A stretch of DNA of 64,000 nucleotides from an uncultured Alphaproteobacteria bacterium (lineage in GTDB: Bacteria > Electryoneota > RPQS01): the NCBI GenBank assembly GCA_964444755.1, contig CAYUIF010000016.1, positions 5,902 to 69,901 of the forward strand, written 5' to 3'. Below the pieces are notes generated by a model, which worked only from the letters and a program-made list of their open reading frames with translations, ran no database searches and had not been told where the DNA came from. Each line of letters opens with the position of its first letter. Position 1 is the stretch's first letter. Both the position numbers and the translations under genes were made by a program. Positions 1-48,300 of this stretch are shown one piece after another.

Positions 1-588
1 GAGGCGGACAATCCCGAAGTGACCTATCAGCCGATGCTTTGCCAGCATTGCGAGAATGCGCCCTGCGAAACGGTCTGTCCGGTCATCGCCACCATGCACA
101 ATGAAGAAGGACTGAATCAGCAGATTTATAACCGCTGCGTAGGCACGCGCTACTGTTCCAATAACTGTCCGTATAAAGTGCGCCGCTTCAATTGGCATGA
201 ATTCTCCCTGACCGCTTATAACGAGCATCCGCTGCAATTGGTTCTGAATCCCGAAGTGACCGTGCGCGAGAAGGGCGTCATGGAAAAGTGCACCTTCTGC
301 GTGCAGCGGATTCGCGAAGGCAAGGATAAAGCCAAGCAGATGGGCCGCCCCGTTCGCGATGACGACATCGTCACCGCCTGTCAGCAAACTTGTCCGACCG
401 ATGCTATCACCTTCGGCAACATTAATAATCCCGAAAGCCACGCGGCGCACGCCATGAAAGACGAACGCAGCTATCGCGTGCTTGACATGCTGGGAGTGAA
501 ACCGTCCATCGCCTACCAAACGAAAATTCGCAATCGTCCGCCGCGCGCGGGAGCGGATCACCATGACGGGGAGGGACATCACGCATGA
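1..588 (+). CDS. actB: Alternative complex III subunit ActB, C-terminal 4Fe-4S ferredoxin domain (5' partial, continues upstream of window)
   Basis: Frame-1 ORF is open from nt 1. Four Cys clusters ([43 protein letters not shown]) typical of the PsrB/NrfC-like FeS domain. Followed by NrfD-like actC with ATGA start/stop overlap. Confidence 0.75.
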
Positions 589-1985
589 CCGTTCGCGCTG
601 ATGCATTGCCCGCCGATACGAAAGCCATCTTTCCGCCCGACAACGCGCTAAGTGACGATTTGCGCCTGCACGATATCACGAAGGAAGTTATCGCTCCCAT
701 GGAGCGGTTTCCTTCGACGGGATGGTGGATTGCCTTTCTGACCGCCACCGGATTGCTGGGTGTCGGCATCATTACGATCTATTTGCTCTTGGTCAAAGGG
801 CAGGGCATTTTCGGCTTGCAGATTCCGGTGGGCTGGGCCTTTGATATCACCAACTTCGTATTCTGGGTGGGAATCGGCCACGCGGGAACGCTGATCTCGG
901 CGATTCTGTTTCTGCTGCGGCAGAAGTGGAGAACCGCCGTCAACCGCAGCGCCGAAGCCATGACCATCTTTGCGGTGATGACCGCCGGGATCTTTCCGCT
1001 CTTGCACACCGGACGGCAATGGCTGGCGTTTTTCCTGTTCCCGTATCCCAATCATCGGCTGTTGTGGGTGAACTTCCGCTCGCCGCTGTTGTGGGACGTG
1101 TTCGCGGTCTCCACCTATTTGACGATTTCGCTGCTGTTCTGGTACACGGGACTGGTTCCCGATTTCGCCACCATTCGTGACCGCGCCAAATCGCTGTTCC
1201 GCAAAAAGCTCTTCAATATTCTCTCGCTGGGCTGGACGGGTTCGATGCGGAATTGGAACCACTACGAAAAGGCCTATCTATTGTTCGCCGGAAGTGCCAC
1301 AGCTTTAGTGCTGTCGGTGCATACCGTCGTTTCGTACGACTTTGCCTCCTCGATAATTCCCGGCTGGCATACCACACTGTTCCCGCCGTACTTCGTGGCC
1401 GGGGCGATTTTTTCCGGATTTGCGATGGTGGTGACCTTGCTGGTGATCGTGCGCAAGCTGTTCCATATGGAGCATTTGATCACCATGCGCCACCTCGAAC
1501 TCATGAACAAGATCATTCTGGTCACGGGTTTGATGGTGGGCTTTTCCTATTGTACCGAATTCTTCGTGGCCTGGTACAGCGAGAATCCGTTCGAGCAATA
1601 CGTGTTTCTGAACCGCGCGTTCGGACCGTTCGCGTGGGCGTTCTGGATCATGTTCATTTGCAACGCCGTCGTGCCGCAAGTTTTTTTCTTTAAGAAGGCG
1701 CGAACCTCGCTGCCGATCATGTTCGTGGTGTCGCTGCTGGTCAATGTCGGCATGTGGTTCGAACGCTTCAATATCATCGTTACCTCGCTGCACCGCGACT
1801 TCCTGCCGTCCAGTTGGGATACGTTCATTCCCACGATTTTCGATTTCGGCTGGACTATCGGCGCGTTCGGCTTGTTCTTTACGCTGTTCCTGCTGTTCGT
1901 CCGCTTCTTCCCGATTATCGCCATGGCGGAAATGAAGGGCACCTTGCCCAATCCGGTGGGGAAAGGAGGGGCGCATCATGGCTAA
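585..1985 (+). CDS. actC: Alternative complex III subunit ActC (NrfD/PsrC-like polytopic membrane quinol-binding subunit)
   Basis: 466 aa, multiple TM helices, NrfD-family signature. Lies between FeS subunit and DUF3341 gene in canonical ACIII order. Confidence 0.8.
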
Positions 1986-2502
1986 GTTTGTACCGCGCGA
2001 CGCCGTGCTCGGTTTCTTCAGCGATCCCGATGCCATTTTGCACGCGGCGGATCATGCCCGGCAAAAAGGCTGGCGGGGATTGGATGCCATCACGCCCTAT
2101 CCCGTGCACGGCATGGAACACGCGCTGGGTTTGAAAAATTCCTGGGTGCCGTGGGTAACGCTCATTGCGGGATTCTCCGGAGGCATTTTAGGATTCATTT
2201 TCCAAGTGTGGACCTCGGCGGTGGATTGGCCGATCAATATCGGCGGCAAACCGTTCGTATCGTGGCCTGCGTTCGTGCCGGTGATGTTCGAATGCGCGAT
2301 TCTCATCGGCGGCATTGCGACGTTCATCGCGTTGTGGATGGCCTGCAAACTGCCGAATTCCCGGCCGAAGATTCACGACGAGCGCCTCACCGATAACCGG
2401 TTTGCATTGGTGGTGCCGCTAATGGATGGCGCGGCGGAACAAGAGATAACGGAATTTTTGAAGGGAGCGGGAGCGGATGAAGTACGCCGCGTGGATCTGT
2501 AG
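1978..2502 (+). CDS. actD: Alternative complex III subunit ActD (DUF3341 membrane protein)
   Basis: 174 aa, two TM helices, DUF3341-like sequence. Overlaps actC by 8 nt. Confidence 0.7.
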
Positions 2503-3103
2503 TCTGCTCATGGCGGCAACGCTGCTCGGCGGCTGCAAGACCAAGTCGCAGCCGTTGGTGGAATATATGCCCGATATGTATCACCAAATCTCCGTGCGCG
2601 CACAGGAATACGATCCCACCGCGCCGGGTGGCGTGGGTATGCGACAGCCCGTGGCCGGAACCGTGGCGCGCGGCTACGAGCCGTATCCGTATACTTTTGC
2701 CGATTCCCTTTTGGCCGATCAGATGGTCAATCCGCTCTTGCCGACGCAGGACGTTTTGGAGACCGGGCGGAAGTACTTCGATACCTACTGCATTGTCTGC
2801 CACGGTGCGCGGGGCGACGGTCACGGCTATATTATTCCCAAGTTCACTCAGCCGCCGTCGCTCTACAGCGAGAAATTACTCAACTGGACGGATGGGCGAA
2901 TCTATCATACGATCACCCTCGGTCAAGGTCTCATGAACAGTTACGCCACACAGTTGCTGCCCGAACAGCGCTGGGCGGTCGTGCATTATGTGCGAGCCTT
3001 GCAGCGCGCGGCTTATCCCACCGCTGACGATTTGCAGGCGGCGAAGGATAGCACTTTTACCATGGAAAGCGATTTGCCGGATACGGCCAAGAAGGCACAA
3101 TAA
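2477..3103 (+). CDS. actE: Alternative complex III subunit ActE (monoheme cytochrome c lipoprotein)
   Basis: Lipoprotein signal (LLGGC), single CIVCH heme motif, position in operon. Confidence 0.75.
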   Translation: MKYAAWICSLLMAATLLGGCKTKSQPLVEYMPDMYHQISVRAQEYDPTAPGGVGMRQPVAGTVARGYEPYPYTFADSLLADQMVNPLLPTQDVLETGRKYFDTYCIVCHGARGDGHGYIIPKFTQPPSLYSEKLLNWTDGRIYHTITLGQGLMNSYATQLLPEQRWAVVHYVRALQRAAYPTADDLQAAKDSTFTMESDLPDTAKKAQ

Positions 3104-3112
3104 CGAATTCCT

Positions 3113-4303
3113 ATGCATCATCCAGCCATCACTCAGATCGATAATCCGGGACCGGTTGCCCTCGCGGCGCGCTGGAAAACGGTTTTCATTGCCGCCACCG
3201 GCATCGGCGTACTTGCCTTCGTGTTGGGCGTGGTGACTGATCCGGCGCGGGCCTGGCATAACTATCTGATTGACTATTTCATGTTTTTATGCTTCGGGCT
3301 GTTCGGTTTGTTCTTTACCGCAGTTCATCATGCGGTCAATGCCAAGTGGTGGATCGTCGCTCGCCGTGTGGCCGAGGGCTTCACCGCTTATCTGCCGCTG
3401 GCGCTGATTCTGTTTATCGGAATCATCGCCGGTGCGCGCGATGTCTATCCGTGGGCATCGGGACTGATCACGGGCGCTCCCGGCAAGTTCACGTGGCTGT
3501 CGCTGCCGTGGTTTGCCGTTCGTTATGTCGTGATTTTGGCGATTTGGATTTTGCTGGCACGCAAACTTCTATCATTATCGTTGAAGCAGGATCAAACCGG
3601 CGATCCGTGGCTATCACGGAAAATGATCAATTGGTCCATCATCACGCTGCCGATCTTCGCCGGAACCTTCTCGCTGGCTTGTTTCGATATGCTCATGAGC
3701 CTCCAGCCGAAGTGGTATTCCACGTTGTTTGCGGTATACGGTTTCGCGGGGTTATTCCAAAGCGGTGTAGCGCTGCTGATTATCGTGTTCGTGCTGCTGA
3801 AGCGGCAGGGCGCGCTGGCGCAGGTGGCCACGCCGTCTCACGTCAAGGACTTGGGAACGTTGCTGTTTGCCTTCACGATCTTTATGACCTATATCGGCTT
3901 TTCCCAATACATGCTGATTTGGTACGCGAATATCCCCGAAGAAACGATTTTCTACATCCACCGTCAGGAAAACGGCTGGGAATATCTGTTTATCGCGCTG
4001 CCGATTCTGAAATTCGCCATTCCGTTTTTAGGCTTATTGTCCCAGGCTTTCAAAAAGAGCGAAAACTGGCTGGTCACGATTTGCGTGGTGGTGATTCTTG
4101 GTCAGTTCGTGGATATCTACTGGCTGGTCATGCCGTCGCTCAGCGACGTGATTATTCCCATCGGCTGGATGGAAGTGGGAGTGTTCCTCATGTTCGCGGG
4201 AATCTTTGCGCTATCGGTATCGCGATTCTATTCCCGGCATTCGGTGCTGGCGGTCAATGATCCGCGCATCTTGGAGAGTGTTAACTGGAGGTTCTGGGAA
4301 TAA
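3113..4303 (+). CDS. actF: Alternative complex III subunit ActF (second NrfD-like membrane subunit)
   Basis: 396 aa polytopic membrane protein, paralogous to ActC. RBS-less tight spacing within operon. Confidence 0.75.
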   Translation: MHHPAITQIDNPGPVALAARWKTVFIAATGIGVLAFVLGVVTDPARAWHNYLIDYFMFLCFGLFGLFFTAVHHAVNAKWWIVARRVAEGFTAYLPLALILFIGIIAGARDVYPWASGLITGAPGKFTWLSLPWFAVRYVVILAIWILLARKLLSLSLKQDQTGDPWLSRKMINWSIITLPIFAGTFSLACFDMLMSLQPKWYSTLFAVYGFAGLFQSGVALLIIVFVLLKRQGALAQVATPSHVKDLGTLLFAFTIFMTYIGFSQYMLIWYANIPEETIFYIHRQENGWEYLFIALPILKFAIPFLGLLSQAFKKSENWLVTICVVVILGQFVDIYWLVMPSLSDVIIPIGWMEVGVFLMFAGIFALSVSRFYSRHSVLAVNDPRILESVNWRFWE

Positions 4304-5205
4304 TGCCGACTCCGTCCCGCTCCAAGCTGCCGGTTATTCTGCCGTGGCTGTTGTGTGTCGCCGTGGCGGTGGTGTGGCTGTATCGTGAAAATCATCTGGC
4401 CACACAGATCAAAACGCTGCAAGTTCAAGTAACGGCCGCTTCTGCTAATCAAGCTCCCGATTTGCGTGCGCTGGCGCAGGATGCCAGTCTGGCGGCGCGC
4501 GGGAAGGAATTGTATACGGCCAACTGCGCCACTTGTCACGGTACGAGCGGTCAAGGGGACGGACCGGCTTCGGCCACCATCAATCCCAAACCGCGCAAGT
4601 ATAAAACCGAGCCGTTTAAATTCGGTGACGACATCGCTTCGATTTATAATACGCTGATCAAGGGTTCTCCCGGTACGTCGATGCCGTCGTTTGCGCTGCT
4701 GCCGCCGCAAGACTTAATGGCCTTGGCGCATTACGTACGGACCTTTGTTCCCAATCCCACTCCCACGACTGAAGAAATCCTGGCGAAATTGCCCGCTTCC
4801 GCTTCGGCCGGCGGAGGATTATTGCCGGTGGCAGATACCGGACCGCGTATTCCCATTAAGCTCGCGATGGAGCGTTTGGCACAACCGGCTCCTGCACAAC
4901 CTGCCGCCGCGGCGATAAATTCGGAATTGCCCGGTGCAGAGCTGTACTTGAACCGCTGCGCGATGTGCCATGGTCATAAGGGAGAGGGTTTGCCGCAACG
5001 TGCAATTGATGTTTATCCCTATCGCTATCAAACCACGCTCAGCTTAGCCGCCTCGCAAGCAGGCTGGAAGCACAACCGCAACCGCTTCAAAGAGATCGTT
5101 GTTCGTGGGCTGCCGGGCCATTCTATGCCGGGCAACGGAACTCTCACCGAACGGCAAGTGGATGACCTCTTTCAGTTTGTTTCTGCCTTAACTGCAATAC
5201 AGTAG
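4303..5205 (+). CDS. Membrane-anchored diheme c-type cytochrome (ACIII-associated electron acceptor)
   Basis: N-terminal TM anchor, two CxxCH motifs (CATCHG, CAMCHGHKG). ATG overlaps actF stop. Confidence 0.7.
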   Translation: MPTPSRSKLPVILPWLLCVAVAVVWLYRENHLATQIKTLQVQVTAASANQAPDLRALAQDASLAARGKELYTANCATCHGTSGQGDGPASATINPKPRKYKTEPFKFGDDIASIYNTLIKGSPGTSMPSFALLPPQDLMALAHYVRTFVPNPTPTTEEILAKLPASASAGGGLLPVADTGPRIPIKLAMERLAQPAPAQPAAAAINSELPGAELYLNRCAMCHGHKGEGLPQRAIDVYPYRYQTTLSLAASQAGWKHNRNRFKEIVVRGLPGHSMPGNGTLTERQVDDLFQFVSALTAIQ

Positions 5206-5212
5206 ATTGATT

Positions 5213-5244
5213 GGGGAGGTTGAAACCCTCCCCTTCTCTTTGTC
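5213..5244 (+). terminator. Rho-independent terminator after ACIII/cytochrome c operon
   Basis: GGGGAGG-tgaaac-CCTCCCC hairpin followed by ttctctttgtc. Confidence 0.6.
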
Positions 5245-5288
5245 GTATAATAGGAGTAATTAGATCTAATTATTGGAAAGGATTGCCC

Positions 5289-6077
5289 ATGAGGACGAGA
5301 TTAATTTCACTGGCAGCCCTGTGCGTTTTCATCATGAGCGCATCGGTATGGGCACTTGGTTACGGCGATGCAGCGCCGGACTTCACCCTGACCGATACCG
5401 ACGGACAGAGTCATACTCTGTCGGACTATCGCGATCAGGTCGTCTACCTGAATTTTTTCGGATGGTCGTGACCGGTCTGCCGGTCCCAGGGTGGGACCAT
5501 CGAATCGGAAATCCATCAGGTCTTTCAGGACCAAGCGTTTCAGATTTTCGGAATTGATCAATGGGACGGCGGGGTAGTCGGCTGTGAGAATTTCCGCGCT
5601 TTTACGGGAGTGACCTATCCGCTGCTGACGCTCGGCAGTAGCGTCGCGCAAGCGTACGGCGTAGACCGGCAATCGCTGGTCATTGACGGCGCAGGCATTA
5701 TTCGCTGGATCGGCGCGACCCACAGCTTGCCGATTGCGCAGATTCAGGATACGATCGAAACCTATTTAGCACGGTTATCCAATGATGATCTACCGCACGA
5801 TGCATTGCCTGGTGATTTCGGAATCAGTGCCGTTTATCCCAATCCGTTCAATGCTACCGTGCGGATCGAGATGGTTTTGCCGAATCTGAATCGCAACGCC
5901 CGGCTCGAAGTATTCGATGTTTCGGGAAGACAGGTTGCTGAATTTCCGATTAGCTCCAATTCCGCGGAAAGGCAAACCATTCTCTGGTCACCGCAGGGAA
6001 TTGCTTCGGGAAGATATTTTCTGTCACTGATCCATGATGATGGTCAGCAAACCGTTCCCTTAATCTTTCTGAAGTAG
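5289..6077 (+). CDS. Predicted selenoprotein: secreted thioredoxin-fold redoxin (AhpC/TSA-TlpA-like) with UxxC active site (TGA 5469..5471 read as Sec) and T9SS type-A C-terminal sorting domain
   Basis: ORFs 5211..5471 and 5610..6077 are in the same frame, separated only by TGA. Translation across it gives YLNFFGWS-U-PVC, i.e. the TGA sits at the first Cys of the WCxxC motif. Signal peptide MRTRLISLAALCVFIMSASVWA after RBS ggaaagg. Redoxin core (LVIDGAGIIRW). C-terminus has YPNPFNATVRIE...LIFLK CTD. SECIS-like hairpin lies 10 nt downstream of the TGA. Confidence 0.6.
5482..5498 (+). promoter_or_regulatory. Bacterial SECIS-like hairpin (GGUCCCA-GGG-UGGGACC) within coding sequence
   Basis: Perfect 6-7 bp stem with G-rich apical loop, starting 11 nt after the UGA A residue. 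This matches the spacing used by SelB-dependent bacterial SECIS elements. Confidence 0.5.
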
Positions 6078-6304
6078 CAAATTTTTTCTTTAATTTTAAC
6101 AGGAGGTTCTGCAAATGCAGGATTTCCTGTTTTTCTTTATTATTTTTAACTTGTTGAATATTATGCAGCACTAATTATTAGGATAAAGCGGTATTTTGTT
6201 GAAAAGGCTTGACATTTGCAATACATGAGGTTAGATTTAAGTATTCCATCTTTAGATCAACTTCTTAGGTAAAAGGGGTGGTCCGCCACCCCAGAGGAGG
6301 CACT

Positions 6305-8086
6305 ATGAAGACTGTGGGTCGTGCATCAGCGAGCGCTCTGGCGGTCGCATTTTTATTGGTCGTTAGTACGAACGCTTTTTCGCAGCCGCTGTTCGAAGAT
6401 GTTGCGCAGGATTTAGGGATTATGGATGTCATCGCCAATGCCTGCGATGTCTATTGGTATGATTACGATAATGATCAGGATCTGGATTTAATCGTGGCCC
6501 ATCGCTATGGATCTACGACCTATCTGTACCGCAACGATGGCGCACAATTCACGCGGTTGGATCACATCGGTTTGCCGGAGAACTGGGATGGCGGTATTGG
6601 TGGGGCGATGGATTTTGATCACGATGGTGATCTCGATCTGTACACCCGCTGCTATCACTCACCCAGCACGCTCTTGGTTTACCAAAATGGGGTGTTCACC
6701 GATTATACTTCGGAACTGGGTTTACCGTATGAAGCCGGAACCCGCGGCTGCCGCTGGGTGGACTTCGATCGCGACGGTTGGATGGACTTGCTGTGGGGTA
6801 GCGACTACACCGGTTTTCACCTGTATCGGAATTACAACGGCATTGCCTTTACGGATATTACCTCGGTCAGCCAATTGCCGAGTCTGAGCAGTTTTTCCGA
6901 GATTTGTGAGGCCGATGCCGACTTGGACGGCGATATTGATTTGTTCATGACCCGCACGAATGGCGACGATCATTTCTTCGTGAATCAGGGCAACGGCGTA
7001 TTTGTGGATTATACCGCGCCGGCGGGCTTGAATGCTGCCTGCGGGAAAATCGACTGCCGCTGGGTGGATATAGACCACGACAAATATCCCGACATTCTTA
7101 CGCAAGCCGTGGATCGTCATACGATCTGGCACAACAACGGCGATAATACCTTCACCGAGATGACCGTTCACGGAACCGAAACCGACTTCTCGGTAGCCGC
7201 ACCCTATGGTGCGACCTACACGATCGCTGATTTCGATATGGACGGGGATTATGATTTCTACGCGGTCCGTCCGGGCGGTTGTGGATCTGCGCCGGCATTG
7301 AATCAATTGTTCATTCAGGACAGCATCAATGGAACGGATGTTTGGTTCCACGACGCGGCTCCTGATTTCGGAATGAATATCCTGTCCAATGGATCGTCCT
7401 CGACTGCGGATATTGATGGAGACGGGGATTTGGATCTTACCGTATCAAATTCCAGTGGGCAAGTATTTGTGTTCCGCAACAACACAGTCAGTTCGAACTT
7501 CCTGCAAGTTCGCGTGCTGGGACCGAACGGCGAGCAGGATCGCTGGCATACCCGCATTGATTTGTGTCCTCACGGGTCACCAACCGTGCTCCGGTCATCC
7601 GAATTGAACAACTCCAATGTGGATCGCAACGGCTTTAATAACTATTTTGTGACCGATGCAAATTCCCACTACGATCTGCGGATTTATTTTGCCTGCGGCA
7701 CGGTGATGACGCCGGAAGAGTATCCGTATTTGGCGGACATCGTTCCGTCGGAAATCAATCACAAACTTACGGTCTATATGGGTAGTCCAACAGCGACTCC
7801 CGACCTGCCGAATCCCACAGTTGGTGAATTCCGTTTAAATGCGGCTTATCCGAATCCGTTCAATGCGATGACCACGATTTCCTATTCCGTGCCCAAGAGT
7901 GGACCGGCGCGGCTGGCGGTTTACAATATCGCCGGGCAGTTGGTGCGCGATTTGGTGAACGGAACGGTTACCGCCGGTAGTCACAATGTGTCTTACAATG
8001 CCGAAACGCAAACCTCCGGTATCTACTTCGTTCGCTTGGAAGCCGGCGAACAAATGGCTACGCAGAAAATCGTGCTGCTTAAGTAG
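6305..8086 (+). CDS. FG-GAP/VCBS repeat (CRTAC1/ASPIC-UnbV-like) secreted protein with T9SS C-terminal domain
   Basis: Signal peptide, repeated DxDxDGDxDL calcium-binding loops (DFDHDGDLDL, DFDRDGWMDL, DLDGDIDL). C-terminal YPNPFNAMTTISY...KIVLLK. RBS agaggagg. Confidence 0.7.
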   Translation: MKTVGRASASALAVAFLLVVSTNAFSQPLFEDVAQDLGIMDVIANACDVYWYDYDNDQDLDLIVAHRYGSTTYLYRNDGAQFTRLDHIGLPENWDGGIGGAMDFDHDGDLDLYTRCYHSPSTLLVYQNGVFTDYTSELGLPYEAGTRGCRWVDFDRDGWMDLLWGSDYTGFHLYRNYNGIAFTDITSVSQLPSLSSFSEICEADADLDGDIDLFMTRTNGDDHFFVNQGNGVFVDYTAPAGLNAACGKIDCRWVDIDHDKYPDILTQAVDRHTIWHNNGDNTFTEMTVHGTETDFSVAAPYGATYTIADFDMDGDYDFYAVRPGGCGSAPALNQLFIQDSINGTDVWFHDAAPDFGMNILSNGSSSTADIDGDGDLDLTVSNSSGQVFVFRNNTVSSNFLQVRVLGPNGEQDRWHTRIDLCPHGSPTVLRSSELNNSNVDRNGFNNYFVTDANSHYDLRIYFACGTVMTPEEYPYLADIVPSEINHKLTVYMGSPTATPDLPNPTVGEFRLNAAYPNPFNAMTTISYSVPKSGPARLAVYNIAGQLVRDLVNGTVTAGSHNVSYNAETQTSGIYFVRLEAGEQMATQKIVLLK

Positions 8087-8141: not shown

Positions 8142-8158
8142 TCGGATGATTTAAACTT

Positions 8159-8839
8159 TCAATGACAACAGGTGTGCCCGGTGGTGGCCGCCATGATGCC
8201 CACGATCCCCCGCCAGATCAGTACAATCGCCGTTAAACCTAATACGACTTCTCCGGCAATCGTTCCGAACCGGTTCCACTTTTGCGGGAGAATCCGCATC
8301 ACCGCACCCACCCCGATCAACGCGGGCGATGTGCCGATACCGAAGGCTTGCATGAGTGCCATTCCCGCCAGCGGTTCCGCCGCCGCCGCACTGCGTGCCA
8401 CCATCGCATAAAGCAGGCCGCACGGCAATAGCGCCGCGCCGATGCCTAAAAAGAGCGGAGCCCGGTTTCCGGTTTTCATGGAGAACTTGGCCAAGGCGGT
8501 GGAAATCTTGCTCAACCCTGATCCGGCGGTTTTCAGCCGCAACAGAATGATTGCCGCCAGCATCAGGATCCCGCCGCCGATGGAAACGTAAGCCGTGGCC
8601 CGTTCCAGTACGCCCGTGGCCACAAACGCCGCTCCGACTGCCCCCGCCAATAGCCCCAACACCGAGTAGCTGCCCAGCTTGCCGATGGCAAACAGCCACG
8701 GCCCCCACGCCGTGGAACGCGCCAAGCTTGAACGGCAGCCCAATGTGACCAGTGGGCCGCACATGCCGATGCAGTGCAGCGAACCGAACAATCCGGCGAT
8801 AAACGCGCCGCCCATCGCCGCTGCGAATTCGGGTGTCAT
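8159..8839 (-). CDS. DsbD_2/TauE-SafE-like membrane protein associated with cbb3 oxidase assembly
   Basis: 226 aa polytopic membrane protein with HCIGMCGP motif. Terminal gene of the cco biogenesis operon. Confidence 0.55.
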   Translation of the reverse strand: MTPEFAAAMGGAFIAGLFGSLHCIGMCGPLVTLGCRSSLARSTAWGPWLFAIGKLGSYSVLGLLAGAVGAAFVATGVLERATAYVSIGGGILMLAAIILLRLKTAGSGLSKISTALAKFSMKTGNRAPLFLGIGAALLPCGLLYAMVARSAAAAEPLAGMALMQAFGIGTSPALIGVGAVMRILPQKWNRFGTIAGEVVLGLTAIVLIWRGIVGIMAATTGHTCCH

Positions 8840-8842
8840 AAT

Positions 8843-9334
8843 TTAGTCCACGAAGAAACTGATGCGTTTTGAATAAGCTTGTCGGTCGCGCTTCAGATCC
8901 ACTTGCGCCTGCCATGCGCCGCGTTCCAGCGCGTGCGGCAAATAGATCAGATAGCGTCCGGTGCCCACATATTGAATGGGCAGCGGCGCCCGATCCAGCG
9001 TTTTATCCGAAGGACGATAAAAGCCGACCTGTCCCGCCAGCGAATCGCAGGGCGTGCCGGAAGCTTCCTTAACCGTTAACTCGGCCAACGGCATATCGGC
9101 TTGCTCCAGCGGCAGCGACCGAATCGTCACGGTCCACCCGGTGGCTTGACTGGCCGCGTCGCGCTCGGTAATCTCCTTGAGATTGTAGCCTTCCGCATAA
9201 TAGTTTTCGCTGACCAATTGCGGACGATTCCGGAACGCCACCGTTACAAACGCGATATTGATGGCAATGAAGACCACCATCGCCGCCGTCAATCCCACCG
9301 GCCAAATCGTGTCCTTGCTGAACAATCTTTTCAT
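8843..9334 (-). CDS. ccoH: cbb3 oxidase assembly protein CcoH/FixH
   Basis: 163 aa, N-terminal TM helix, FixH-like sequence, position after ccoG. Confidence 0.7.
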   Translation of the reverse strand: MKRLFSKDTIWPVGLTAAMVVFIAINIAFVTVAFRNRPQLVSENYYAEGYNLKEITERDAASQATGWTVTIRSLPLEQADMPLAELTVKEASGTPCDSLAGQVGFYRPSDKTLDRAPLPIQYVGTGRYLIYLPHALERGAWQAQVDLKRDRQAYSKRISFFVD

Positions 9335-9349
9335 CGTTGCTCTCGATTT

Positions 9350-10792
9350 CTACTTCACCGCTCGCGCCGGTCCCAAAAAAATCGTCGGCGCGCGGCTTAA
9401 CAACGTATCGCCCGTCATCAGTCGAAAAGTGATCGGCGTTTCTGACCCGGCTACTTGCTCACGCGGCAGCAGCACGAAGACTTCGGTACTCAAGCGCTGC
9501 CCCGCAGCAATCGTAAACGGGTCACCGGGAACGATCGTCTGCAATCCCGCCGGACCATCGGCTTCCACATGTACGTTCAACGGTCGAACGTCAGTGTTCG
9601 TGATATGCACGGTAAATAGGTTTCGCACCTTGCCGTCATCTTGTACCATAAACGGAATTCCCGCCGAGCGGGTAATGGTCAGCCCGACCGCTTCACGGCT
9701 CAACAGGCGGCTGCTGAACACCCCCAGCACGACGATCATGACCAGCGAATACAACACCACGCGGCGGCGGATGATTTTTTGCGGTCGGCCCGCCAGTCCT
9801 GCCAGCGAATCGTAGCGAATCAGACCGCGCGGCCGTTCAATGCGATCCATCACCGCATCGCACGCGTCAATACACGCCGTGCAGCTCACGCATTCAAGCT
9901 GCAAGCCGTTGCGAATGTCAATGCCGGTGGGGCAGACCTGCACGCAGCGCTTGCAGTCAATACAGTCCCCGCGATTATCCCACGAGTGATCGGGCCGTAA
10001 CGGACTGCGCGGCTCACCGCGTTGCGGATCGTAGCCTACGATCAGCGAATGATCGTCCAGCATCACCGATTGAAAGCGCGCATAGGGACAAAGAAACGTG
10101 CAGAATTGCTCGCGGAACCATGCGAAGTTCCACAAGGTTATTCCCGTCACCACCAGCGTTGTCACCATCGCCGCCGGATGCGATGCGCCGCCGCTGCGCA
10201 GCATCTCCAGCACGCCCTGCGGCGAAATGAAATAGGCTACGAAGCTCAGCGATAACAATGCCGAGACGATAAAAAACGCCGCAATCTTGACGGTCTTCTT
10301 GCTCCAGTAGGCGCCATCACGCGGTCCGCTATCCAGTTTGCGGCGTTTCAGGGGCGAACCTTCGATCCACCGCTCGATCCGTCGAAACACGCCTTCCAGA
10401 TATACGGTTTGCGGACATGCCCACCCGCACCACAGCCGTCCCAGCAGCGCCGAGAACAGAAACATCGCCACGGCCGCCAGCAATAGGAATAATGCCAGCA
10501 GATATAAATCGGTGGCTACGAAGGTCGTTCCGAAAATGCTGAACCGCCGGGCCGGTAAGTCGAAGCGCAAGAACGGTTCGCTGCCGATTTTCAGCCACGG
10601 GGCAACGATATAAAACACGATCAACACCGAATAGACGATATTGCGCGCTTGCGCAAACCGTCCGGCGGCAATATCCGCATACACCCACTTCCGCCGTCCG
10701 CCTTCACCCAAGGTTGTATTGCGGGAGGGCGGAGCGGACACCGGCAGTATGTTCAATTCGGTTGCCGAAGCCGTGTCCTGTTGCTCGTTCAT
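9350..10792 (-). CDS. ccoG: cbb3 oxidase assembly ferredoxin CcoG/FixG
   Basis: 480 aa with TM helices and two 4Fe-4S motifs (CIDCKRCVQVCP, CVSCTACIDAC). Confidence 0.85.
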   Translation of the reverse strand: MNEQQDTASATELNILPVSAPPSRNTTLGEGGRRKWVYADIAAGRFAQARNIVYSVLIVFYIVAPWLKIGSEPFLRFDLPARRFSIFGTTFVATDLYLLALFLLLAAVAMFLFSALLGRLWCGWACPQTVYLEGVFRRIERWIEGSPLKRRKLDSGPRDGAYWSKKTVKIAAFFIVSALLSLSFVAYFISPQGVLEMLRSGGASHPAAMVTTLVVTGITLWNFAWFREQFCTFLCPYARFQSVMLDDHSLIVGYDPQRGEPRSPLRPDHSWDNRGDCIDCKRCVQVCPTGIDIRNGLQLECVSCTACIDACDAVMDRIERPRGLIRYDSLAGLAGRPQKIIRRRVVLYSLVMIVVLGVFSSRLLSREAVGLTITRSAGIPFMVQDDGKVRNLFTVHITNTDVRPLNVHVEADGPAGLQTIVPGDPFTIAAGQRLSTEVFVLLPREQVAGSETPITFRLMTGDTLLSRAPTIFLGPARAVK

Positions 10793-11430
10793 TGATCGGC
10801 TGTCGCGGCGGCGGTGGAATCAGCGGCAGTTTCTGATGCTGCCGGTTGGCGATACGCGGCCATGTCGTATTTTTCGCCTTCTGCTTTTTTACCGGCTACG
10901 CCTTCGGGCAGCGGCTCTTCCCACATCGTCATGACATACGCGGTTAGACTCTTGATCTTGCGTTCGCCGAGAATCGGACCCCATGTGGGCATGCCCTTGG
11001 CGGCGACGCCGTTGGTGATTACGGCCGCGATATTGGCTTCGGCCGGGCCGTGAATCCAGAACGCATCGTGCAGATTCGGGCCGATGCCGCCTTCGCCGTA
11101 CGTGCCGTGACAAGACACGCAAAACGTCTTGAAATATTTCTGTCCGGCGGCAATCGGATTTTTGTCCAATTCGCCGGAGGCTTCCAATTCCAGTTCACGC
11201 TGTTCCTGAATCCGCGCCGCGTAGGCGATGGACTGATTCAACTCGTTGTGCGGCAGGAAGTCGAAAATATGCACCACCGGAACGTACACTATGGCGAACA
11301 GAATCGCCAGATACAGCATCCCCAGCCACCATTTAGGAAGCGGATTGTCTTCCTCGCGGATGCCGTCGTAATCATGATCGAGCATGGAAAACTCGACCGG
11401 GTCGTTGTCGTGTTTCTGAGTTTCGGTCAT
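10789..11430 (-). CDS. ccoP: cbb3-type cytochrome c oxidase subunit CcoP (monoheme variant)
   Basis: N-terminal PKWWLGMLY membrane anchor motif characteristic of CcoP, single CVSCH heme site. Confidence 0.7.
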   Translation of the reverse strand: MTETQKHDNDPVEFSMLDHDYDGIREEDNPLPKWWLGMLYLAILFAIVYVPVVHIFDFLPHNELNQSIAYAARIQEQRELELEASGELDKNPIAAGQKYFKTFCVSCHGTYGEGGIGPNLHDAFWIHGPAEANIAAVITNGVAAKGMPTWGPILGERKIKSLTAYVMTMWEEPLPEGVAGKKAEGEKYDMAAYRQPAASETAADSTAAATADQ

Positions 11431-11612
11431 GAATGGGTTCCGTTGAGTTCGCGATGGTCATCGTCCAGCGGCAAGCGGCTCTCGCGTTCGAAGCGATCCC
11501 GCCGCCCGCGATACGTCCAGATAACGATCCCGACAAAAACGCTAAAGCAGAGCACCAAGCCGACAATTGCCCACAAGCTTGCGCCAAGATAAGTGATAGC
11601 GTCGTGGATCAT
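11427..11612 (-). CDS. ccoQ: CcoQ-like small membrane subunit of cbb3 oxidase
   Basis: 61 aa, single TM helix, sandwiched between ccoNO and ccoP with 4-nt overlaps. Confidence 0.5.
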   Translation of the reverse strand: MIHDAITYLGASLWAIVGLVLCFSVFVGIVIWTYRGRRDRFERESRLPLDDDHRELNGTHS

Positions 11613-13765
11613 GGTTTGCCCGCCAGATAGTTCGGCTGCGGCGTTCGGCCTAAATGCTGCAAGTAGGCAATGATGGCAACGATTTCCTTGTCCGCCGTGT
11701 CGGGAAAGCCTTCCTGCTCGAGCTGTGCGGCGATTTGCGAGGCCTGCGCTTCCAAGTTGTCGCGAGCCGCGGCGATATCCCCATCCGTATAAGGCACGTT
11801 CATCGTGCGCAGTACCCGCATCTTCTTTTCGATATCGGAGTAGTCAAGCTGGTCCGTGAGCAGCCACGGATAGGGCGGCATAATCGAACCCGGCGAGGTC
11901 GAACGCGGATTCTGGAAATGCAGATAATGCCATTGCGGCGGATATTTCGGTCCGACGCGCGCCAAATCCGGTCCGATCCGCCGCGATCCCCACAGGAACG
12001 GATGATCGTATTCGAACTCGCCGGGCTTGGAATAATCGCCGTAGCGCAGCACTTCATCGCGCATCGGCCGGATCATCTGCGAATGACAGTTGTTGCAGCC
12101 TTCGCGGATATAGAGATCGCGGCCTTCCAGTTCCAGCGGCGACATCGGCGCGGCGGCGGAGGCATACATCGGCACATAACTCTTGGGCATCAGCAGCGGA
12201 CCGATTTCAACCACGCCGCCCACTCCCACCGCCATCAGCGCGAGCAAACTGAACGCCAACGGTTGACCCGTCAGCAAGTGATGCCACGGGGTGCGTGCAG
12301 TGGCCGGTTCGGGCTTCAGCGCGGCCAACGACGGCGCTTGCGCCTGCTCGTCTTCCAGATTTTTCGCCCCAGCCATGGTCTTGAACAGGTTGTAGCCCAT
12401 CAGGATCATGCCCGTTAAATAAAGCAGACCGCCCAGCAATCGCGTATGATAGAAGGGCAGAATCTTTTGCGTCGTTTCCACAAAATTCGGATAGAGCAGC
12501 AAGCCGTCCGGATCAAACGCGCGCCACATCAGTCCCTGCATGATTCCCGCGATCCAGATGGGAATGATGTAAAGCAGAATCCCCACCGTAGCGATCCAGA
12601 AATGCAGGTTCGCCATATTCCGCGAATAGAGGTCTTTCCGCCACAGGCGCGGCGCCATGTAGTAGAGAACCCCAAACACCATGAATCCGACCCAGCCCAA
12701 CGCGCCGGCATGCACGTGGGCTACAGTGTAGTCCGTATAATGGGTCAGCGAGTTCACGGCTTTGATGGACATCATCGGACCTTCGAAGGTGGACATCCCG
12801 TAGAAGGTCACCGACACCGCAAGAAACTTCAGAATCGGATCTTCCCGCAGGCGATGCCATGCGCCGCGCAAGGTCAGCAAGCCGTTGAGCATTCCGCCCC
12901 ATGACGGAGCCAGCAGGATCAGACTGAACACCATCCCCAGCGTTTGCGCCCAATCCGGCAGCGCGGTGTAATGCAGATGATGCGGTCCCGCCCAAATATA
13001 GACAAAGATCAATGCCCAGAAGTGAATCACCGATAGCCGGTAGCTGTACACCGGACGCTCCGCCGCTTTCGGCAGGTAGTAATACATCATGCCCAGGATC
13101 GGTGTGGTCAGCACAAAGCCCACCGCATTGTGCCCGTACCACCACTGGGTCATGGCATCCTGCACGCCGGCAAACACCGAATAGCTCTTCCAGAATGTCA
13201 CCGGAATCGCCAGCGAGTTCACGATGTGCAGCAGCGCGATCGTGACAATGGTGCCGATATAGAACCACAACGCCACGTATAGATGCCGCTCCCGCCGCCG
13301 GATGATCGTCATGAAGAAGTTGATTCCGAACACCACCCACACCAGCGTAATCATCACGTCCAGCGGCCACTCCAACTCTGCATACTCTTTGCTGGTCGTG
13401 AGACCCGATAGCAGCGTGATCGCCGCCAGCACGATGATGAGCTGCCAGCCCCAGAAGTGTATTTTAGAAAGCAGATCGGAGAACATCCGCGCTTTCAGCA
13501 GCCGCTGCGAGGAATAATACACCGCCGCGAAGATCGCATTGCAGGTGAAGGCGAAGATCACCGCGTTGGTATGCAGCGGCCGCAAGCGGCCGAAAGTCAG
13601 CCACGAAAGACCGCCGTTGACCTGCCAAAAGGCCAGTTCGGCGGCCACAATCACACCCACCAGCATGCCGACCACGCCCCAGATCAGGGTCGCTTGGACA
13701 AACCGGCGCACGATCTGATCGTCGTAGGCGAACGTCTCGAGCGCCGTTGGGTTGTTGGATGCCAT
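11609..13765 (-). CDS. ccoNO: Fused cbb3-type cytochrome c oxidase subunits I and II (CcoNO)
   Basis: 718 aa. N-terminal 12-TM heme-copper oxidase subunit I. C-terminal monoheme CcoO domain (CNNCHSQMIRP...GPDLARVG). This fusion is characteristic of the FCB group. Confidence 0.9.
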   Translation of the reverse strand: MASNNPTALETFAYDDQIVRRFVQATLIWGVVGMLVGVIVAAELAFWQVNGGLSWLTFGRLRPLHTNAVIFAFTCNAIFAAVYYSSQRLLKARMFSDLLSKIHFWGWQLIIVLAAITLLSGLTTSKEYAELEWPLDVMITLVWVVFGINFFMTIIRRRERHLYVALWFYIGTIVTIALLHIVNSLAIPVTFWKSYSVFAGVQDAMTQWWYGHNAVGFVLTTPILGMMYYYLPKAAERPVYSYRLSVIHFWALIFVYIWAGPHHLHYTALPDWAQTLGMVFSLILLAPSWGGMLNGLLTLRGAWHRLREDPILKFLAVSVTFYGMSTFEGPMMSIKAVNSLTHYTDYTVAHVHAGALGWVGFMVFGVLYYMAPRLWRKDLYSRNMANLHFWIATVGILLYIIPIWIAGIMQGLMWRAFDPDGLLLYPNFVETTQKILPFYHTRLLGGLLYLTGMILMGYNLFKTMAGAKNLEDEQAQAPSLAALKPEPATARTPWHHLLTGQPLAFSLLALMAVGVGGVVEIGPLLMPKSYVPMYASAAAPMSPLELEGRDLYIREGCNNCHSQMIRPMRDEVLRYGDYSKPGEFEYDHPFLWGSRRIGPDLARVGPKYPPQWHYLHFQNPRSTSPGSIMPPYPWLLTDQLDYSDIEKKMRVLRTMNVPYTDGDIAAARDNLEAQASQIAAQLEQEGFPDTADKEIVAIIAYLQHLGRTPQPNYLAGKP

Positions 13766-13767
13766 GC

Positions 13768-13974
13768 TCAGTCCTTGTCTATTTGCTTATTCGCTTTTTG
13801 CTCGGGTGAAGAAGCATCGCCGTTGGATTTCGGCGGTTGATCGTCCAATAAAATCCGGCGGGCGGGCGTATCCAGATCGTCGAATTGCCCGTGCCGCACC
13901 GCCCACAGATAAAACAGCACGAACGCCAGTACCAGCAATAGTGCCAGCGGCAATAATAGATAGATGATGTTCAT
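13768..13974 (-). CDS. ccoS: cbb3 oxidase maturation protein CcoS/FixS
   Basis: 68 aa, single TM helix. Lies between ccoI and ccoNO. Confidence 0.6.
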   Translation of the reverse strand: MNIIYLLLPLALLLVLAFVLFYLWAVRHGQFDDLDTPARRILLDDQPPKSNGDASSPEQKANKQIDKD

Positions 13975-13975
13975 C

Positions 13976-29503: not shown

Positions 29504-29936
29504 AGCAGGCTCCTCAGTACAAATGACCACTGATACACGGTTTCAATGGAATCAACAAAGCCAAGATATCCATTTCCACTCCAAGTCACAAGCCAAATCC
29601 CGGATTCCATCAAAACGGCATGGGTTCGTATTATTAATACTCCTTGATACCGATGGACTCTGAAACATACAATAATCGTTGGATTTTCCCGTTTTCAGAG
29701 GGGAGGCAGGGCTTCAGGAACCGGAAAATCGGCGAGGGTCAGTGGGGTAAGAAATCCTGAATTAAAGGTTTAACATTTCTTCGAGTGGCTTGACTTTTTT
29801 TATTTGTTAAGGAAAGCCCTTGCGGCACCGTAATATGCTTAGTATATTTATTGTCACTAATACGTTAAATCGAACAATTCGACTGTGTGAAAACGTAACT
29901 GCTCAAATCATTGTTTTGACAGGAGAGGAGAACGGA

Positions 29937-48149: not shown

Positions 48150-48300
48150 TATCTATTCCATCCCGATTGGTCTGCGACAGTATACGGCAGCGAACAGGCT
48201 GCCGTATGCTTTTTTAAAAGACAGGGGGATTCAGTTTCTTGACTCCATGGGCAATCTTTCGCTATATTGCGCTATTCGTTCCACAAAACCCAATCCGATC

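What the first reader, a model, noticed from the sequence alone, without database searches (positions are those of the whole stretch)
5289..6077. Predicted selenocysteine (UxxC) redoxin exported by the type IX secretion system
Two annotated ORFs (5211..5471 and 5610..6077) are in the same frame and separated only by TGA at 5469..5471. Reading through gives NFFGWS-U-PVC, which aligns the TGA precisely with the first Cys of the thioredoxin-fold WCxxC active site. Ten nt downstream lies a perfect hairpin GGUCCCA-GGG-UGGGACC (5482..5498) with a G-rich apical loop at the spacing used by bacterial SECIS elements. The gene has its own RBS and signal peptide, sits between two terminators, and ends with a canonical T9SS type-A CTD. 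This predicts a selenoprotein anchored or released at the cell surface. Thiol-oxidoreductase selenoproteins are known, but I am not aware of one described as a T9SS cargo, and an extracellular Sec-redoxin would be biologically unusual given how reactive and costly Sec is.
Basis: partly seen in the sequence, partly recalled or inferred. Interest (0 to 1): 0.88.

Follow-up and report, generated by a model that had tools for sequence, protein, structure and literature searches.

The report
Selenocysteine redoxin with type IX secretion tail
One gene, wrongly split in two by annotation, most likely encodes a selenium-containing thiol-redox enzyme that carries the tag used by Bacteroidetes-like bacteria to send proteins to the cell surface, and it represents a widespread, unannotated family of such proteins.

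Summary
ATG 5289 to TAG 6077 is one reading frame with a single in-frame TGA at 5469-5471. The read-through protein (262 aa) has a signal peptide, an AhpC-TSA/redoxin domain and a T9SS type-A C-terminal domain.

The TGA sits on the first Cys of CxxC in homologs. An exhaustive search found a large family of redoxin+CTD proteins. About 60 of the top 150 are full-length CxxC forms and about 40 are "truncated". All 10 truncated lineages I could read as DNA have TGA at that same column, and one has UxxU.

Each has a hairpin with a G-first triloop 17-25 nt downstream. The stem sequences differ but stay paired. Cys forms lack the hairpin. Downstream codons are under purifying selection (dN/dS 0.17-0.26). 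TGA is a normal stop for 10 of 42 window genes.

So this is most likely a genuine selenoprotein. UxxC "Prx-like" redoxin selenoproteins are already known, and a thioredoxin-motif T9SS cargo (HBP35) is known. The combination appears undescribed.

selA/B/D and tRNA-Sec could not be checked in this genome. Caldithrix abyssi, of the phylum to which the near-identical MAG is assigned, is a listed Sec user.

The parts
5213..5233 (+). Terminator-like hairpin plus T-rich tail that ends the upstream cytochrome c gene (4303-5205)
   Evidence: Pattern scan, (7 pairs, 6 GC). The sequence is seen.
5275..5282 (+). Shine-Dalgarno-like GGAAAGGA, 6 nt upstream of the ATG
   Evidence: Read from the sequence. 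Not tested statistically.
5289..6077 (+). Complete selenoprotein CDS: 262 codons plus TAG, with one in-frame TGA. It is annotated and ORF-called as two pieces, 5211..5471 and 5610..6077.
   Evidence: Purifying selection is seen on both sides of the TGA.
5289..5354 (+). Predicted Sec-type signal peptide (MRTRLISLAALCVFIMSASVWA, probable cleavage after VWA)
   Evidence: Read from the translation. Homologs have equivalent N-terminal hydrophobic leaders. No signal-peptide predictor was available.
5364..5711 (+). AhpC-TSA / redoxin (TlpA/ResA-like, 'Prx-like') thioredoxin-fold domain, residues 26-141
   Evidence: Pfam PF00578 E 1.3e-16 and PF08534 E 6.9e-11. The closest PDB sequences are 2LS5, 3KCM and ResA. 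A homolog model matches the same folds.
5469..5471 (+). UGA codon 61, predicted selenocysteine, at the first position of the U-P-V-C redox motif
   Evidence: It aligns with the first Cys of CxxC in Cys homologs. TGA is at the same column in 10 of 10 diverged lineages.
5478..5480 (+). TGC codon 64, the resolving Cys of the UxxC motif
   Evidence: It is an invariant column in alignment A3.
5472..5508 (+). Predicted bacterial SECIS element. The upper stem is 5482-5488/5492-5498, the apical loop is GGG at 5489-5491 (17 nt after the UGA), and lower pairs are 5472-5476/5504-5508 and 5478-5479/5501-5502.
   Evidence: MFE -18.4 kcal/mol. Register and G-first triloop are conserved with compensatory stem changes in orthologs. 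Covariation count: 80% paired against 61% shuffled, 0/500 shuffles reach it. The hairpin is absent in Cys forms.
5832..6074 (+). T9SS type-A C-terminal sorting domain (residues 182-262; YPNPFN, GRYF and LIFLK motifs)
   Evidence: TIGR04183 38.3 bits (cutoff 23) and PF18962 31.9 bits (cutoff 27). A homolog model shows a separate beta-sandwich after a disordered linker.
6098..6141 (+). Terminator-like hairpin plus T-run downstream of the stop codon
   Evidence: 15 pairs, 6 GC, tail TTTCTTTATT.

Best explanation
5289-6077 is one gene for a selenocysteine-containing thiol-disulfide oxidoreductase. Its fold is Prx-like/TlpA-ResA-like and its active site is U61-P-V-C64.

**How it works (proposed steps)**
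1. The in-frame UGA is recoded by a SECIS hairpin immediately downstream (5472-5508). The hairpin would recruit SelB carrying Sec-tRNA(Sec).
2. The protein is exported across the inner membrane through its signal peptide.
3. It folds in the periplasm.
4. Its type-A C-terminal domain then hands it to the type IX secretion system for transfer to the cell surface or the medium. The CTD is normally removed there, and the cargo is either lipid-anchored or released.
5. Chemically, the selenolate attacks a substrate disulfide (or another oxidised sulfur species) and is resolved as a selenenylsulfide with C64.

**What is shown**
- The single reading frame.
- The U/C correspondence.
- The conserved TGA and covarying hairpin in 10 lineages.
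- Purifying selection past the TGA.
- The domain memberships.

**What is inferred**
- Actual Sec insertion.
- T9SS export.
- The substrate and the reductant.

In this clade the gene sits between respiratory-complex operons. A TlpA-like role in maturing or protecting extracytoplasmic respiratory proteins is therefore my preferred function, but only weakly.
For: **One frame, one TGA**
- Shown: - The same TGA is found in an independent assembly of a ~99% identical strain.

**Sec/Cys pairing**
- The TGA aligns with the first Cys of CxxC in TlpA-like homologs and in full-length family members such as P0016, FFGWSCASC.

**Family-wide pattern**
- An exhaustive HMMER search with the post-TGA part finds about 60 full-length CxxC+CTD proteins and about 40 N-terminally "truncated" ones.
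- All 10 truncated lineages read as DNA have TGA (never TAA or TAG) at that column and no other internal stop. L096 has U-W-R-U.
- One further relative was translated with W at that column by a code-4-style gene call.

**Hairpin**
- A G-first triloop 17-25 nt after the UGA with at least 6 of 7 stacked pairs is found in 9 of 10 Sec forms, against 2.9% background.
- Stems differ completely between lineages yet stay paired, for example GGUCCCA/UGGGACC against UGCUCCU/AGGAGCA.
- 9 pairs carry double-sided changes, 0/500 shuffles reach the observed values, and slid controls give 29-43% paired against 80%.
- Six Cys-form genes score only 1-4 of 7.

**Translation continues past the TGA**
- dN/dS downstream of the TGA is 0.17 (L085) and 0.26 (L090).

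**No code reassignment**
- TGA terminates 10 of 42 window genes.

**Sorting domain and T9SS use**
- The CTD scores above curated cutoffs.
- At least 7 other CTD proteins are encoded in the window, so the organism clearly uses this sorting signal.

**Sec trait in the phylum**
- Caldithrix abyssi is listed among Sec-utilizing organisms with 4 selenoproteins (PMC5029168 Table S2).
- It also has a SelD-NifS fusion (PMC3916229).

**Precedents**
- UxxC/UxxU Prx-like selenoproteins (PMC13188914, PMC1088965).
- HBP35, a thioredoxin-motif T9SS cargo (PMC2907840, PMC3120885).
Against: - No selA, selB, selD or tRNA-Sec lies in the 64-kb window. The rest of the genome could not be reached, so the machinery is unverified for this organism.
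- Taken alone, the window's hairpin is not statistically remarkable.
- Rfam has no matching SECIS model.
- My covariance model did not generalise to the held-out lineages with a shifted register.
- The hairpin criterion was defined after seeing the data.
- No T9SS core component is encoded in the window.
- A surface-exposed reductase has no obvious electron donor.
- The respiratory synteny holds only in the closest clade (window, L001, L085, L090). Other lineages have unrelated neighbours.
- There is no experimental evidence of any kind.
Confidence: 0.72

Rival explanations
1. It is a genuine selenoprotein, but its working compartment is the periplasm. It would act as a TlpA/ResA/CcmG-type reductant for cytochrome c or copper-centre maturation of the neighbouring ACIII, caa3 and cbb3 complexes, receiving electrons from a CcdA/DsbD-type membrane protein. 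The CTD would then serve only for later disposal, turnover or outer-membrane tethering.
For: - In the window, L001, L085 and L090 the gene lies between respiratory operons. Upstream are ACIII ActB-F plus a dihaem cytochrome c, or CtaA/CtaB/Cox11/COX3. Downstream is FixNOQP-GH plus a DsbD_2 membrane protein two genes away.
- The closest solved relatives are ResA, DsbE/CcmG-type proteins and Etrx2.
- An extracellular reductase would lack a reductant.
Against: - The synteny is not kept in L083, L086, L091 or L097.
- The CTD is retained across roughly 100 family representatives at 50% identity, in both Cys and Sec forms. That argues the CTD is functional rather than incidental.
- The NCBIfam ResA and TlpA models score far below their cutoffs (49.5 against 170; 20 against 230).
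- DsbD_2-type genes may be ordinary members of cbb3 clusters. This point rests on my own knowledge and was not tested.
Confidence: 0.2
2. The UGA is read through with a standard amino acid (Cys, Trp or Gly) by a Sec-independent mechanism stimulated by the hairpin. The product is then a normal CxxC-like redoxin and not a selenoprotein.
For: - The Sec machinery was not demonstrated for this genome.
- One public gene call translated the homologous TGA as W. That is a gene-caller choice, not evidence.
Against: - TGA is an ordinary stop for 10 of 42 genes in the window.
- The position is exactly the redox-active Cys, where Sec/Cys pairs are the hallmark of selenoproteins.
- The hairpin has the bacterial SECIS features: it lies immediately downstream and has a small apical loop containing G (PMC1088965).
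- The phylum's type species is a Sec user.
- No conserved hairpin-driven Cys or Trp read-through of this kind is known in bacteria (my own knowledge).
Confidence: 0.04
3. It is a pseudogene or assembly error, or two independent genes as annotated: a 60-86 aa N-terminal fragment plus a 155-aa CTD-only protein starting at GTG 5610.
For: Public annotation (NCBI MFZ5433272.1 and others) and ORF callers split it this way.
Against: - The TGA is identical in a second assembly.
- The TGA is at the same column in 10 lineages down to ~30% identity, each with an otherwise open ~260-codon frame.
- Purifying selection covers the stretch between the TGA and the annotated GTG.
- The "second gene" would start in the middle of a thioredoxin fold.
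Confidence: 0.03

Closest known systems
Prx-like thiol:disulfide oxidoreductase selenoproteins (the 'Prx-like protein' of Zhang, Fomenko and Gladyshev 2005, PMC1088965). Related catalogued families are 'thiol-disulfide isomerase-like (cd02966) UxxC' and 'Redoxin family PF08534 UxxC' (review PMC13188914).
   Same: - The best Pfam hit is the same, PF00578 AhpC-TSA.
- It has a thioredoxin-like UxxC motif in place of the Prx TxxC/TxxU. A UxxU variant also occurs (L096).
- It has abundant Cys homologs.
- A SECIS hairpin lies directly after the UGA.
   Different: - The published descriptions I could read mention no secretion signal, periplasm or T9SS.
- This family has a signal peptide and a C-terminal T9SS type-A sorting domain.
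- I could not obtain the reference sequences (for example WP_010940744.1, HEU0032618.1), so I could not test whether the redox domains are orthologous or whether some catalogued members already carry an unnoticed CTD.
Porphyromonas gingivalis HBP35 (PMC2907840, PMC3120885)
   Same: It has a thioredoxin-like motif plus the conserved C-terminal domain. Secretion and surface glycosylation by the Por secretion system/T9SS were shown experimentally, and thioredoxin activity was reported.
   Different: HBP35 is a Cys protein that also binds haemin. No sequence comparison with the present family was possible here, so homology of the redox domains is untested. No selenium is involved.
Extracytoplasmic TlpA/ResA/CcmG (DsbE)-type thiol-disulfide reductases, and the pneumococcal surface thioredoxins Etrx1/2
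   Same: - They share the fold. The closest solved structures are 2LS5, 3KCM, ResA 1ST9/1SU9, DsbE 3GL3 and Etrx2 4HQZ/2YP6.
- The CxxC lies at the same position.
- They are located outside the cytoplasm.
- In this clade there is a respiratory-gene neighbourhood.
   Different: - The NCBIfam ResA, TlpA and MauD equivalog cutoffs are far from met.
- The usual cis-Pro position carries D-R/Y-D-R, with a Prx-like Arg (alignments).
- Those proteins are membrane- or lipid-anchored by their N-terminus rather than sorted by a CTD.
- The nucleophile here is Sec rather than Cys.
E. coli fdhF/fdnG-type bacterial SECIS recoding
   Same: An in-frame UGA is followed immediately by a coding-region hairpin with a small apical loop containing G. 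The distance from the UGA to the loop is 17-25 nt, within the 16-37 nt range I recall for the bSECISearch model (my own knowledge).
   Different: The loop here is a triloop G(G/U)N built on a conserved Gly codon. SelB binding is not tested, and no Rfam model covers it.

Membership tests
Bacterial selenoprotein (SelB/SECIS-dependent UGA recoding) | In-frame UGA at a position occupied by Cys in homologs (Sec/Cys pair), with conserved flanks | tested here: met
   TGA is at the identical column in 10 of 10 lineages.
Bacterial selenoprotein (SelB/SECIS-dependent UGA recoding) | Stem-loop immediately downstream of the UGA with a small apical loop containing G, conserved as a structure | tested here: met
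   9/10 against 2.9% background; covariation, 0/500 shuffles; absent in Cys forms. Caveats: the criterion was post hoc, and the CM did not generalise.
Bacterial selenoprotein (SelB/SECIS-dependent UGA recoding) | Reading frame downstream of the UGA kept open and under purifying selection | tested here: met
   There is one internal stop only in each ~260-codon gene. dN/dS is 0.17-0.26 downstream.
Bacterial selenoprotein (SelB/SECIS-dependent UGA recoding) | selA, selB, selD and tRNA-Sec present in the same genome | not testable with these tools
   - None is in the window.
- The source genome is not in the searchable indexes.
- The SelD route gave no Calditrichota label.
- Phylum-level support only: Caldithrix abyssi is listed as a Sec user.
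Bacterial selenoprotein (SelB/SECIS-dependent UGA recoding) | Selenium physically incorporated (75Se labelling or mass spectrometry) | not testable with these tools
   Experimental.
T9SS type-A CTD cargo | C-terminal ~70-80 aa sorting domain matching TIGR04183 / PF18962 above curated cutoffs | tested here: met
   TIGR04183 38.3 against 23 bits and PF18962 31.9 against 27 bits, located at the extreme C-terminus.
T9SS type-A CTD cargo | N-terminal Sec-type signal peptide | tested here: inconclusive
   A typical n-h-c region (MRTR / LISLAALCVFIMSA / SVWA) is read and is shared by homologs. No predictor was available.
T9SS type-A CTD cargo | CTD folds as a separate beta-sandwich after a linker | tested here: met
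   Tested on a homolog only. The AF2 model of Cys-form P0307 (pLDDT 87.8) shows strands 187-268 after a disordered linker at 174-184.
T9SS type-A CTD cargo | Host encodes the T9SS machinery (SprA/Sov, PorK-N, PorU, PorV) | not tested
   No core component is in the window. The only indirect evidence is at least 7 other CTD-bearing proteins in 64 kb.
AhpC-TSA / redoxin thioredoxin-fold oxidoreductase ('Prx-like' UxxC type) | Pfam PF00578/PF08534 above gathering score, with a C/UxxC motif at the start of helix 1 | tested here: met
   61.1 against 26 bits and 42.6 against 26.6 bits. In the homolog model the motif sits at the start of helix 64-81.
ResA / TlpA / CcmG equivalogs | Score above the NCBIfam equivalog or subfamily cutoff | tested here: not met
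   ResA NF002854 49.5 against 170, TlpA NF047696 20.2 against 230, MauD 12.4 against 188.6. It works like these proteins but is not a member.
Peroxiredoxin proper | PxxxTxxC(U) peroxidatic motif | tested here: not met
   The motif is GWS-U-PVC. In the alignment the Prx Cp column matches the second Cys, and the Prx Thr/Ser column matches U. The BCP and Tpx equivalogs are far below cutoff.
NCBIfam redoxin_TUGYCR (seleno)protein | Score above the cutoff of 100 bits | tested here: not met
   20 bits.

The most novel reading that the evidence does not exclude
This gene may represent a widespread, so far unannotated family of selenoproteins exported by the type IX secretion system. It is found in Calditrichota and in unclassified MAGs. 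About 40 of roughly 100 family representatives at 50% identity look like Sec forms.

That would make them, to my knowledge, the first bacterial selenoproteins predicted to act at or beyond the outer membrane. There the selenol's resistance to irreversible oxidation would explain the repeated use of Sec instead of Cys.

The coexisting Cys and Sec forms have identical architecture. They would be a natural experiment on why cells pay for selenocysteine.
Probability: 0.5. Interest if true: 0.72.

Novelty: new variant of a known kind. Interest (0 to 1): 0.6.

Why it matters
**For annotation.** NCBI and other pipelines split these genes into a tiny "AhpC-TSA" stub and a "T9SS type A sorting domain-containing protein". 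A whole family of redox enzymes is therefore invisible in FCB-group genomes.

**For selenium biology.** The catalogued prokaryotic selenoproteins I could read about are discussed without regard to secretion. A selenoenzyme carrying an outer-membrane sorting signal puts selenium chemistry at the cell surface. It also offers matched Sec and Cys forms in which to test the advantage of Sec in an oxidising, reductant-poor compartment.

**For T9SS biology.** It adds a new class of cargo, extracytoplasmic redox enzymes, beyond HBP35. It also raises the question of what reduces them outside the cell.

Tried and rejected
1. **Metagenome scan with the full protein.** All 80 loci were pulled in by the CTD motif AVYPNPFN. 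Only one, L023, had a redoxin domain, and it was a Cys form without a CTD. The scan was useless for orthologs.

2. **Word-indexed homolog search with the full protein.** It returned only 9 hits. The exhaustive HMMER search was needed.

3. **Looking up the window's own genome.** Three proteins were not on record. The genome-contig scan did not return the source genome.

4. **Sec machinery.**
   - Using that fragment as a query gave 5,961 SelD homologs but no Calditrichota label or accession.

5. **Covariance model R1 of UGA plus SECIS.** It re-found only its six training sequences. It missed the lineages whose loop is shifted by 2 nt, so it was not usable as an independent detector. It did show that there is no second such element in the window.

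6. **Rfam at gathering and permissive thresholds.** There was no SECIS family match, only noise hits to miRNA hairpins.

7. **MAFFT on loop-centred 25-mers.** It misaligned them. I used an ungapped in-register subset instead.

8. **Scan of the window for other TGA-bridged ORF pairs.** No other credible selenoprotein candidate was found.

9. **Structure prediction of the window protein itself.** A Cys-form homolog was modelled instead.

10. **Peroxiredoxin and ResA/TlpA equivalog memberships.** Both were considered and rejected on motif and score.
Full report
**1. The observation**

The sequence is as described.
- The ORF listing gives 5211..5471 and 5610..6077 in the same frame.
- Translating 5289-6077 gives a 262-residue product with a single internal stop, TGA 5469-5471, in the context NFFGWS*PVCRSQGGT.
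- Ten nucleotides later lies the perfect 7-bp hairpin GGUCCCA-GGG-UGGGACC (5482-5498). It extends to a 37-nt structure (5472-5508) of -18.4 kcal/mol.
- Terminator-like hairpins lie at 5213-5233 and 6098-6131.
- A GGAAAGGA motif sits 6 nt before the ATG.

With C in place of the stop, the domain searches give:

| Model | Score / E-value | Cutoff |
|---|---|---|
| Pfam AhpC-TSA | E 1.3e-16, 61 bits | 26 bits |
| Pfam Redoxin | E 6.9e-11 | – |
| Pfam Por_Secre_tail | 31.9 bits | 27 bits |
| NCBIfam TIGR04183 (T9SS type A sorting domain) | 38.3 bits | 23 bits |

**2. Is it chance or error?**

Within the window alone the hairpin is only mildly unusual.
- The z-score is -0.24 for a 71-nt fold.
- The 42-nt MFE is in the top 2.2% of windows.
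- A stem of at least 7 bp under permissive SECIS-like rules follows 11% of all TGA triplets.

The decisive evidence comes from other genomes. A second assembly of a ~99% identical strain has the identical TGA and hairpin. It is the Calditrichota MAG GCA_049322395.1, contig JBMORJ010000124.1, together with the Logan assembly of SRR32167788. It differs at about a dozen other positions over 900 nt. This excludes an assembly error.

**3. A family, not a singleton**

An exhaustive HMMER search with the post-TGA part (window:5472-6074) found 111 representatives at E<=1e-10. Among the best 150:
- About 60 are 245-285-aa proteins with a signal peptide, a redoxin domain with CxxC and, mostly, a CTD. 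Examples are FIGYGCPFC, FFGWSCASC, FFGFQCAPC and LFGNQCPFC.
- About 40 are 150-210-aa proteins that begin just after the active site.

In all 10 distinct lineages a short upstream ORF ends in TGA at exactly the first-Cys column and continues in frame into the "truncated" protein.

| Lineage | Motif around the TGA |
|---|---|
| window / L001 | FFGWS-U-PVC |
| L085 (61% identity) | FFGWS-U-PVC |
| L090 | FFGWS-U-PPC |
| L083 | FFGFG-U-QSC |
| L086 | FLGFS-U-SEC |
| L088 | FLGYS-U-PTC |
| L089 | FFGYN-U-ATC |
| L091 (MAG26, JAHLLH010000002.1) | FFGYS-U-PAC |
| L097 | FFGWD-U-PAC |
| L096 | FIGFG-U-WR-U (two TGAs) |

None uses TAA or TAG, and none has any other internal stop. A relative of P0014 was translated with W at that column by a public gene call.

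**4. The hairpin is a conserved structure**

Every Sec-form gene has a hairpin whose triloop starts with G. The loops are GGG, GGC, GGU, GUC and GUA, and they lie 17-25 nt after the UGA.

The stems differ in sequence and in the amino acids they encode, yet they remain paired in the same register. For example, GGUCCCA/UGGGACC (R-S-Q...G-G-T) corresponds to UGCUCCU/AGGAGCA (M-L-L...G-G-A).

| Test | Result |
|---|---|
| G-first triloop, at least 6 of 7 stacked pairs (criterion chosen post hoc) | 9/10 lineages against 2.9% of 22,092 TGA triplets in 615 kb of held DNA; p about 1e-10 with the close clade collapsed |
| Cells paired, ungapped in-register subset (A6) | 80% against 61% in shuffles |
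| Pairs with double-sided changes | 9, against 4.2 in shuffles; 0/500 shuffles reach the observed values |
| Slid-partner controls | 29-43% paired |
| Six Cys-form genes, equivalent position | 1-4 of 7 |

These features match the published description of bacterial SECIS elements. [quoted passage not shown]

A covariance model built from six sequences did not generalise to the lineages with a 2-nt register shift. Rfam has no matching model.

**5. The downstream part is translated, and the code is standard**

- dN/dS downstream of the TGA is 0.17 against L085 and 0.26 against L090. That is as constrained as the upstream part.
- TGA is the stop codon of 10 of 42 window genes. The recoding is therefore local and not a genome-wide reassignment.

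**6. Sec machinery**

- The window has no tRNA and no sel gene. This rests on the Pfam and NCBIfam survey of about 50 ORFs and on tblastn with SelD.
- The source genome could not be reached.
- An indirect SelD search was uninformative.
- At phylum level, Caldithrix abyssi DSM 13497 is listed among "all Sec-utilizing organisms" with 4 known selenoproteins (PMC5029168, Table S2). It also carries a SelD-NifS fusion (PMC3916229).
- NCBI assigns the near-identical MAG to Calditrichota and another family member to Caldithrix sp..

**7. What the protein is**

The closest solved sequences and folds are:
- a Bacteroides putative disulfide isomerase (2LS5);
- a Geobacter thioredoxin-family protein (3KCM);
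- B. subtilis ResA;
- Chlorobium DsbE;
- the pneumococcal surface thioredoxin Etrx2.

An AlphaFold model of a Cys-form homolog (P0307, pLDDT 87.8) shows three parts: a thioredoxin-fold domain, a disordered linker (174-184) and a separate beta-sandwich CTD.

The protein is not a ResA or TlpA equivalog, because the scores are far below cutoff. It is not a peroxiredoxin proper either, because it has U-x-x-C where Prx has T-x-x-C. It fits the catalogued "Prx-like" selenoprotein kind: PF00578, UxxC or UxxU (PMC13188914; PMC1088965).

**8. Context**

- In the window, L001, L085 and L090 the gene is flanked upstream by respiratory genes. These are ACIII plus a dihaem cytochrome c, or CtaA/CtaB/Cox11/COX3.
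- Downstream lie an FG-GAP/CTD protein, a DsbD_2 membrane protein and the cbb3 oxidase cluster.
- This hints at a TlpA-like role in maturing respiratory complexes.
- The synteny is not kept in other lineages. L083 has amylase and CTD proteins. L086 has PBP and RsgA. L091 has a MoxR-DUF58/VWA Bat-like operon. L097 has another redoxin plus DUF6029.
- At least 7 other proteins in the window carry the same CTD. The organism therefore makes heavy use of this sorting signal.

**9. Mechanism (shown against inferred)**

*Shown*
- One frame.
- The Sec/Cys pair.
- The conserved UGA plus covarying hairpin.
- Selection past the UGA.
- The domain memberships.

*Inferred*
- SelB-dependent Sec insertion at codon 61.
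- Sec-translocon export and cleavage after VWA.
- Folding in the periplasm.
- CTD-dependent passage through the T9SS, with CTD removal and surface attachment or release.
- Selenolate attack on a substrate disulfide, with formation of a Se-S bond to C64.
- The reductant is unknown.

**10. Novelty**

- UxxC thioredoxin-fold selenoproteins are well catalogued.
- A thioredoxin-motif T9SS cargo, HBP35, is characterised (PMC2907840, PMC3120885).
- I found no paper linking selenoproteins to the T9SS. One search gave only an irrelevant hit, and another gave none. The 2026 selenoproteome review contains no "secret", "T9SS" or "periplasm".
- Some catalogued "Prx-like" or "Redoxin family" selenoproteins may already be members whose CTD went unnoticed. 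I could not check this.
- I therefore rate it a new variant of a known kind, of moderate to good interest. It is robustly supported as a selenoprotein gene, while its export and function are still inferential.

Noticed in passing
L096 (JGI 3300010430, Ga0118733_101573407) 187-1014: A family member has two in-frame TGAs 9 nt apart (FIGFG-U-W-R-U). It is a UxxU variant with a single hairpin 16 or 25 nt downstream of the two codons.
   Followed up: partly
window 5435-5451: A terminator-like hairpin plus T-run lies inside the gene, 18 nt before the TGA (TCAGGTCGTCTACCTGA ATTTTTTCGG). It is probably a by-product of the N-F-F-G codons, but it sits just where a paused ribosome would wait for SelB.
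   Followed up: no
window 6278-8086, 29820-33146, 41827-43305(-), 46182-47468(-), 48055-49350, 56824-59244(-); also 26036-29530(-): The density of T9SS type-A CTD proteins is unusually high: at least 7 in 64 kb. They include a C25 peptidase, an FG-GAP protein and a laminin-G protein. An S8 subtilase with an FlgD_ig-type C-terminus is also present.
   Followed up: partly
window 19-5205 and 8151-16429(-): An alternative complex III operon (ActB-F plus a dihaem cytochrome c) and a cbb3 oxidase cluster (FixNO-Q-P-G-H, DsbD_2, P-type ATPase FixI) flank the selenoprotein gene. The arrangement is conserved in L001, L085 and L090.
   Followed up: partly
L091 (MAG26, JAHLLH010000002.1) 8338-11734: In this lineage the Sec-redoxin-CTD gene sits between a MoxR AAA ATPase and a DUF58/VWA gene. 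This is the layout of a Bat (Bacteroides aerotolerance)-like operon.
   Followed up: no
window 33641-34351(-) and 34364-35032(-): Two tandem nitroreductase-family genes lie 13 nt apart.
   Followed up: no
window 45443-46075: A second AhpC-TSA/redoxin paralog has an ordinary Cys motif (SCNHCP), no CTD and no hairpin after the Cys codon.
   Followed up: partly
P0160 (Logan relative of P0014): A public gene call translated the homologous TGA as Trp (FFFGYS-W-PSC). This shows how code-4-style calling can hide selenoproteins.
   Followed up: no
SelD homologs (e.g. P0161-P0280); L058 14-622: Most SelD hits are 315-326 aa, shorter than the 347 aa of E. coli SelD. They may be N-terminally truncated at their own Sec codon.
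   Followed up: no
family alignments A1, A3: The family lacks the usual thioredoxin cis-Pro. In its place it has D-R / Y-D-R before the V-I-D strand, resembling the catalytic Arg of peroxiredoxins.
   Followed up: no
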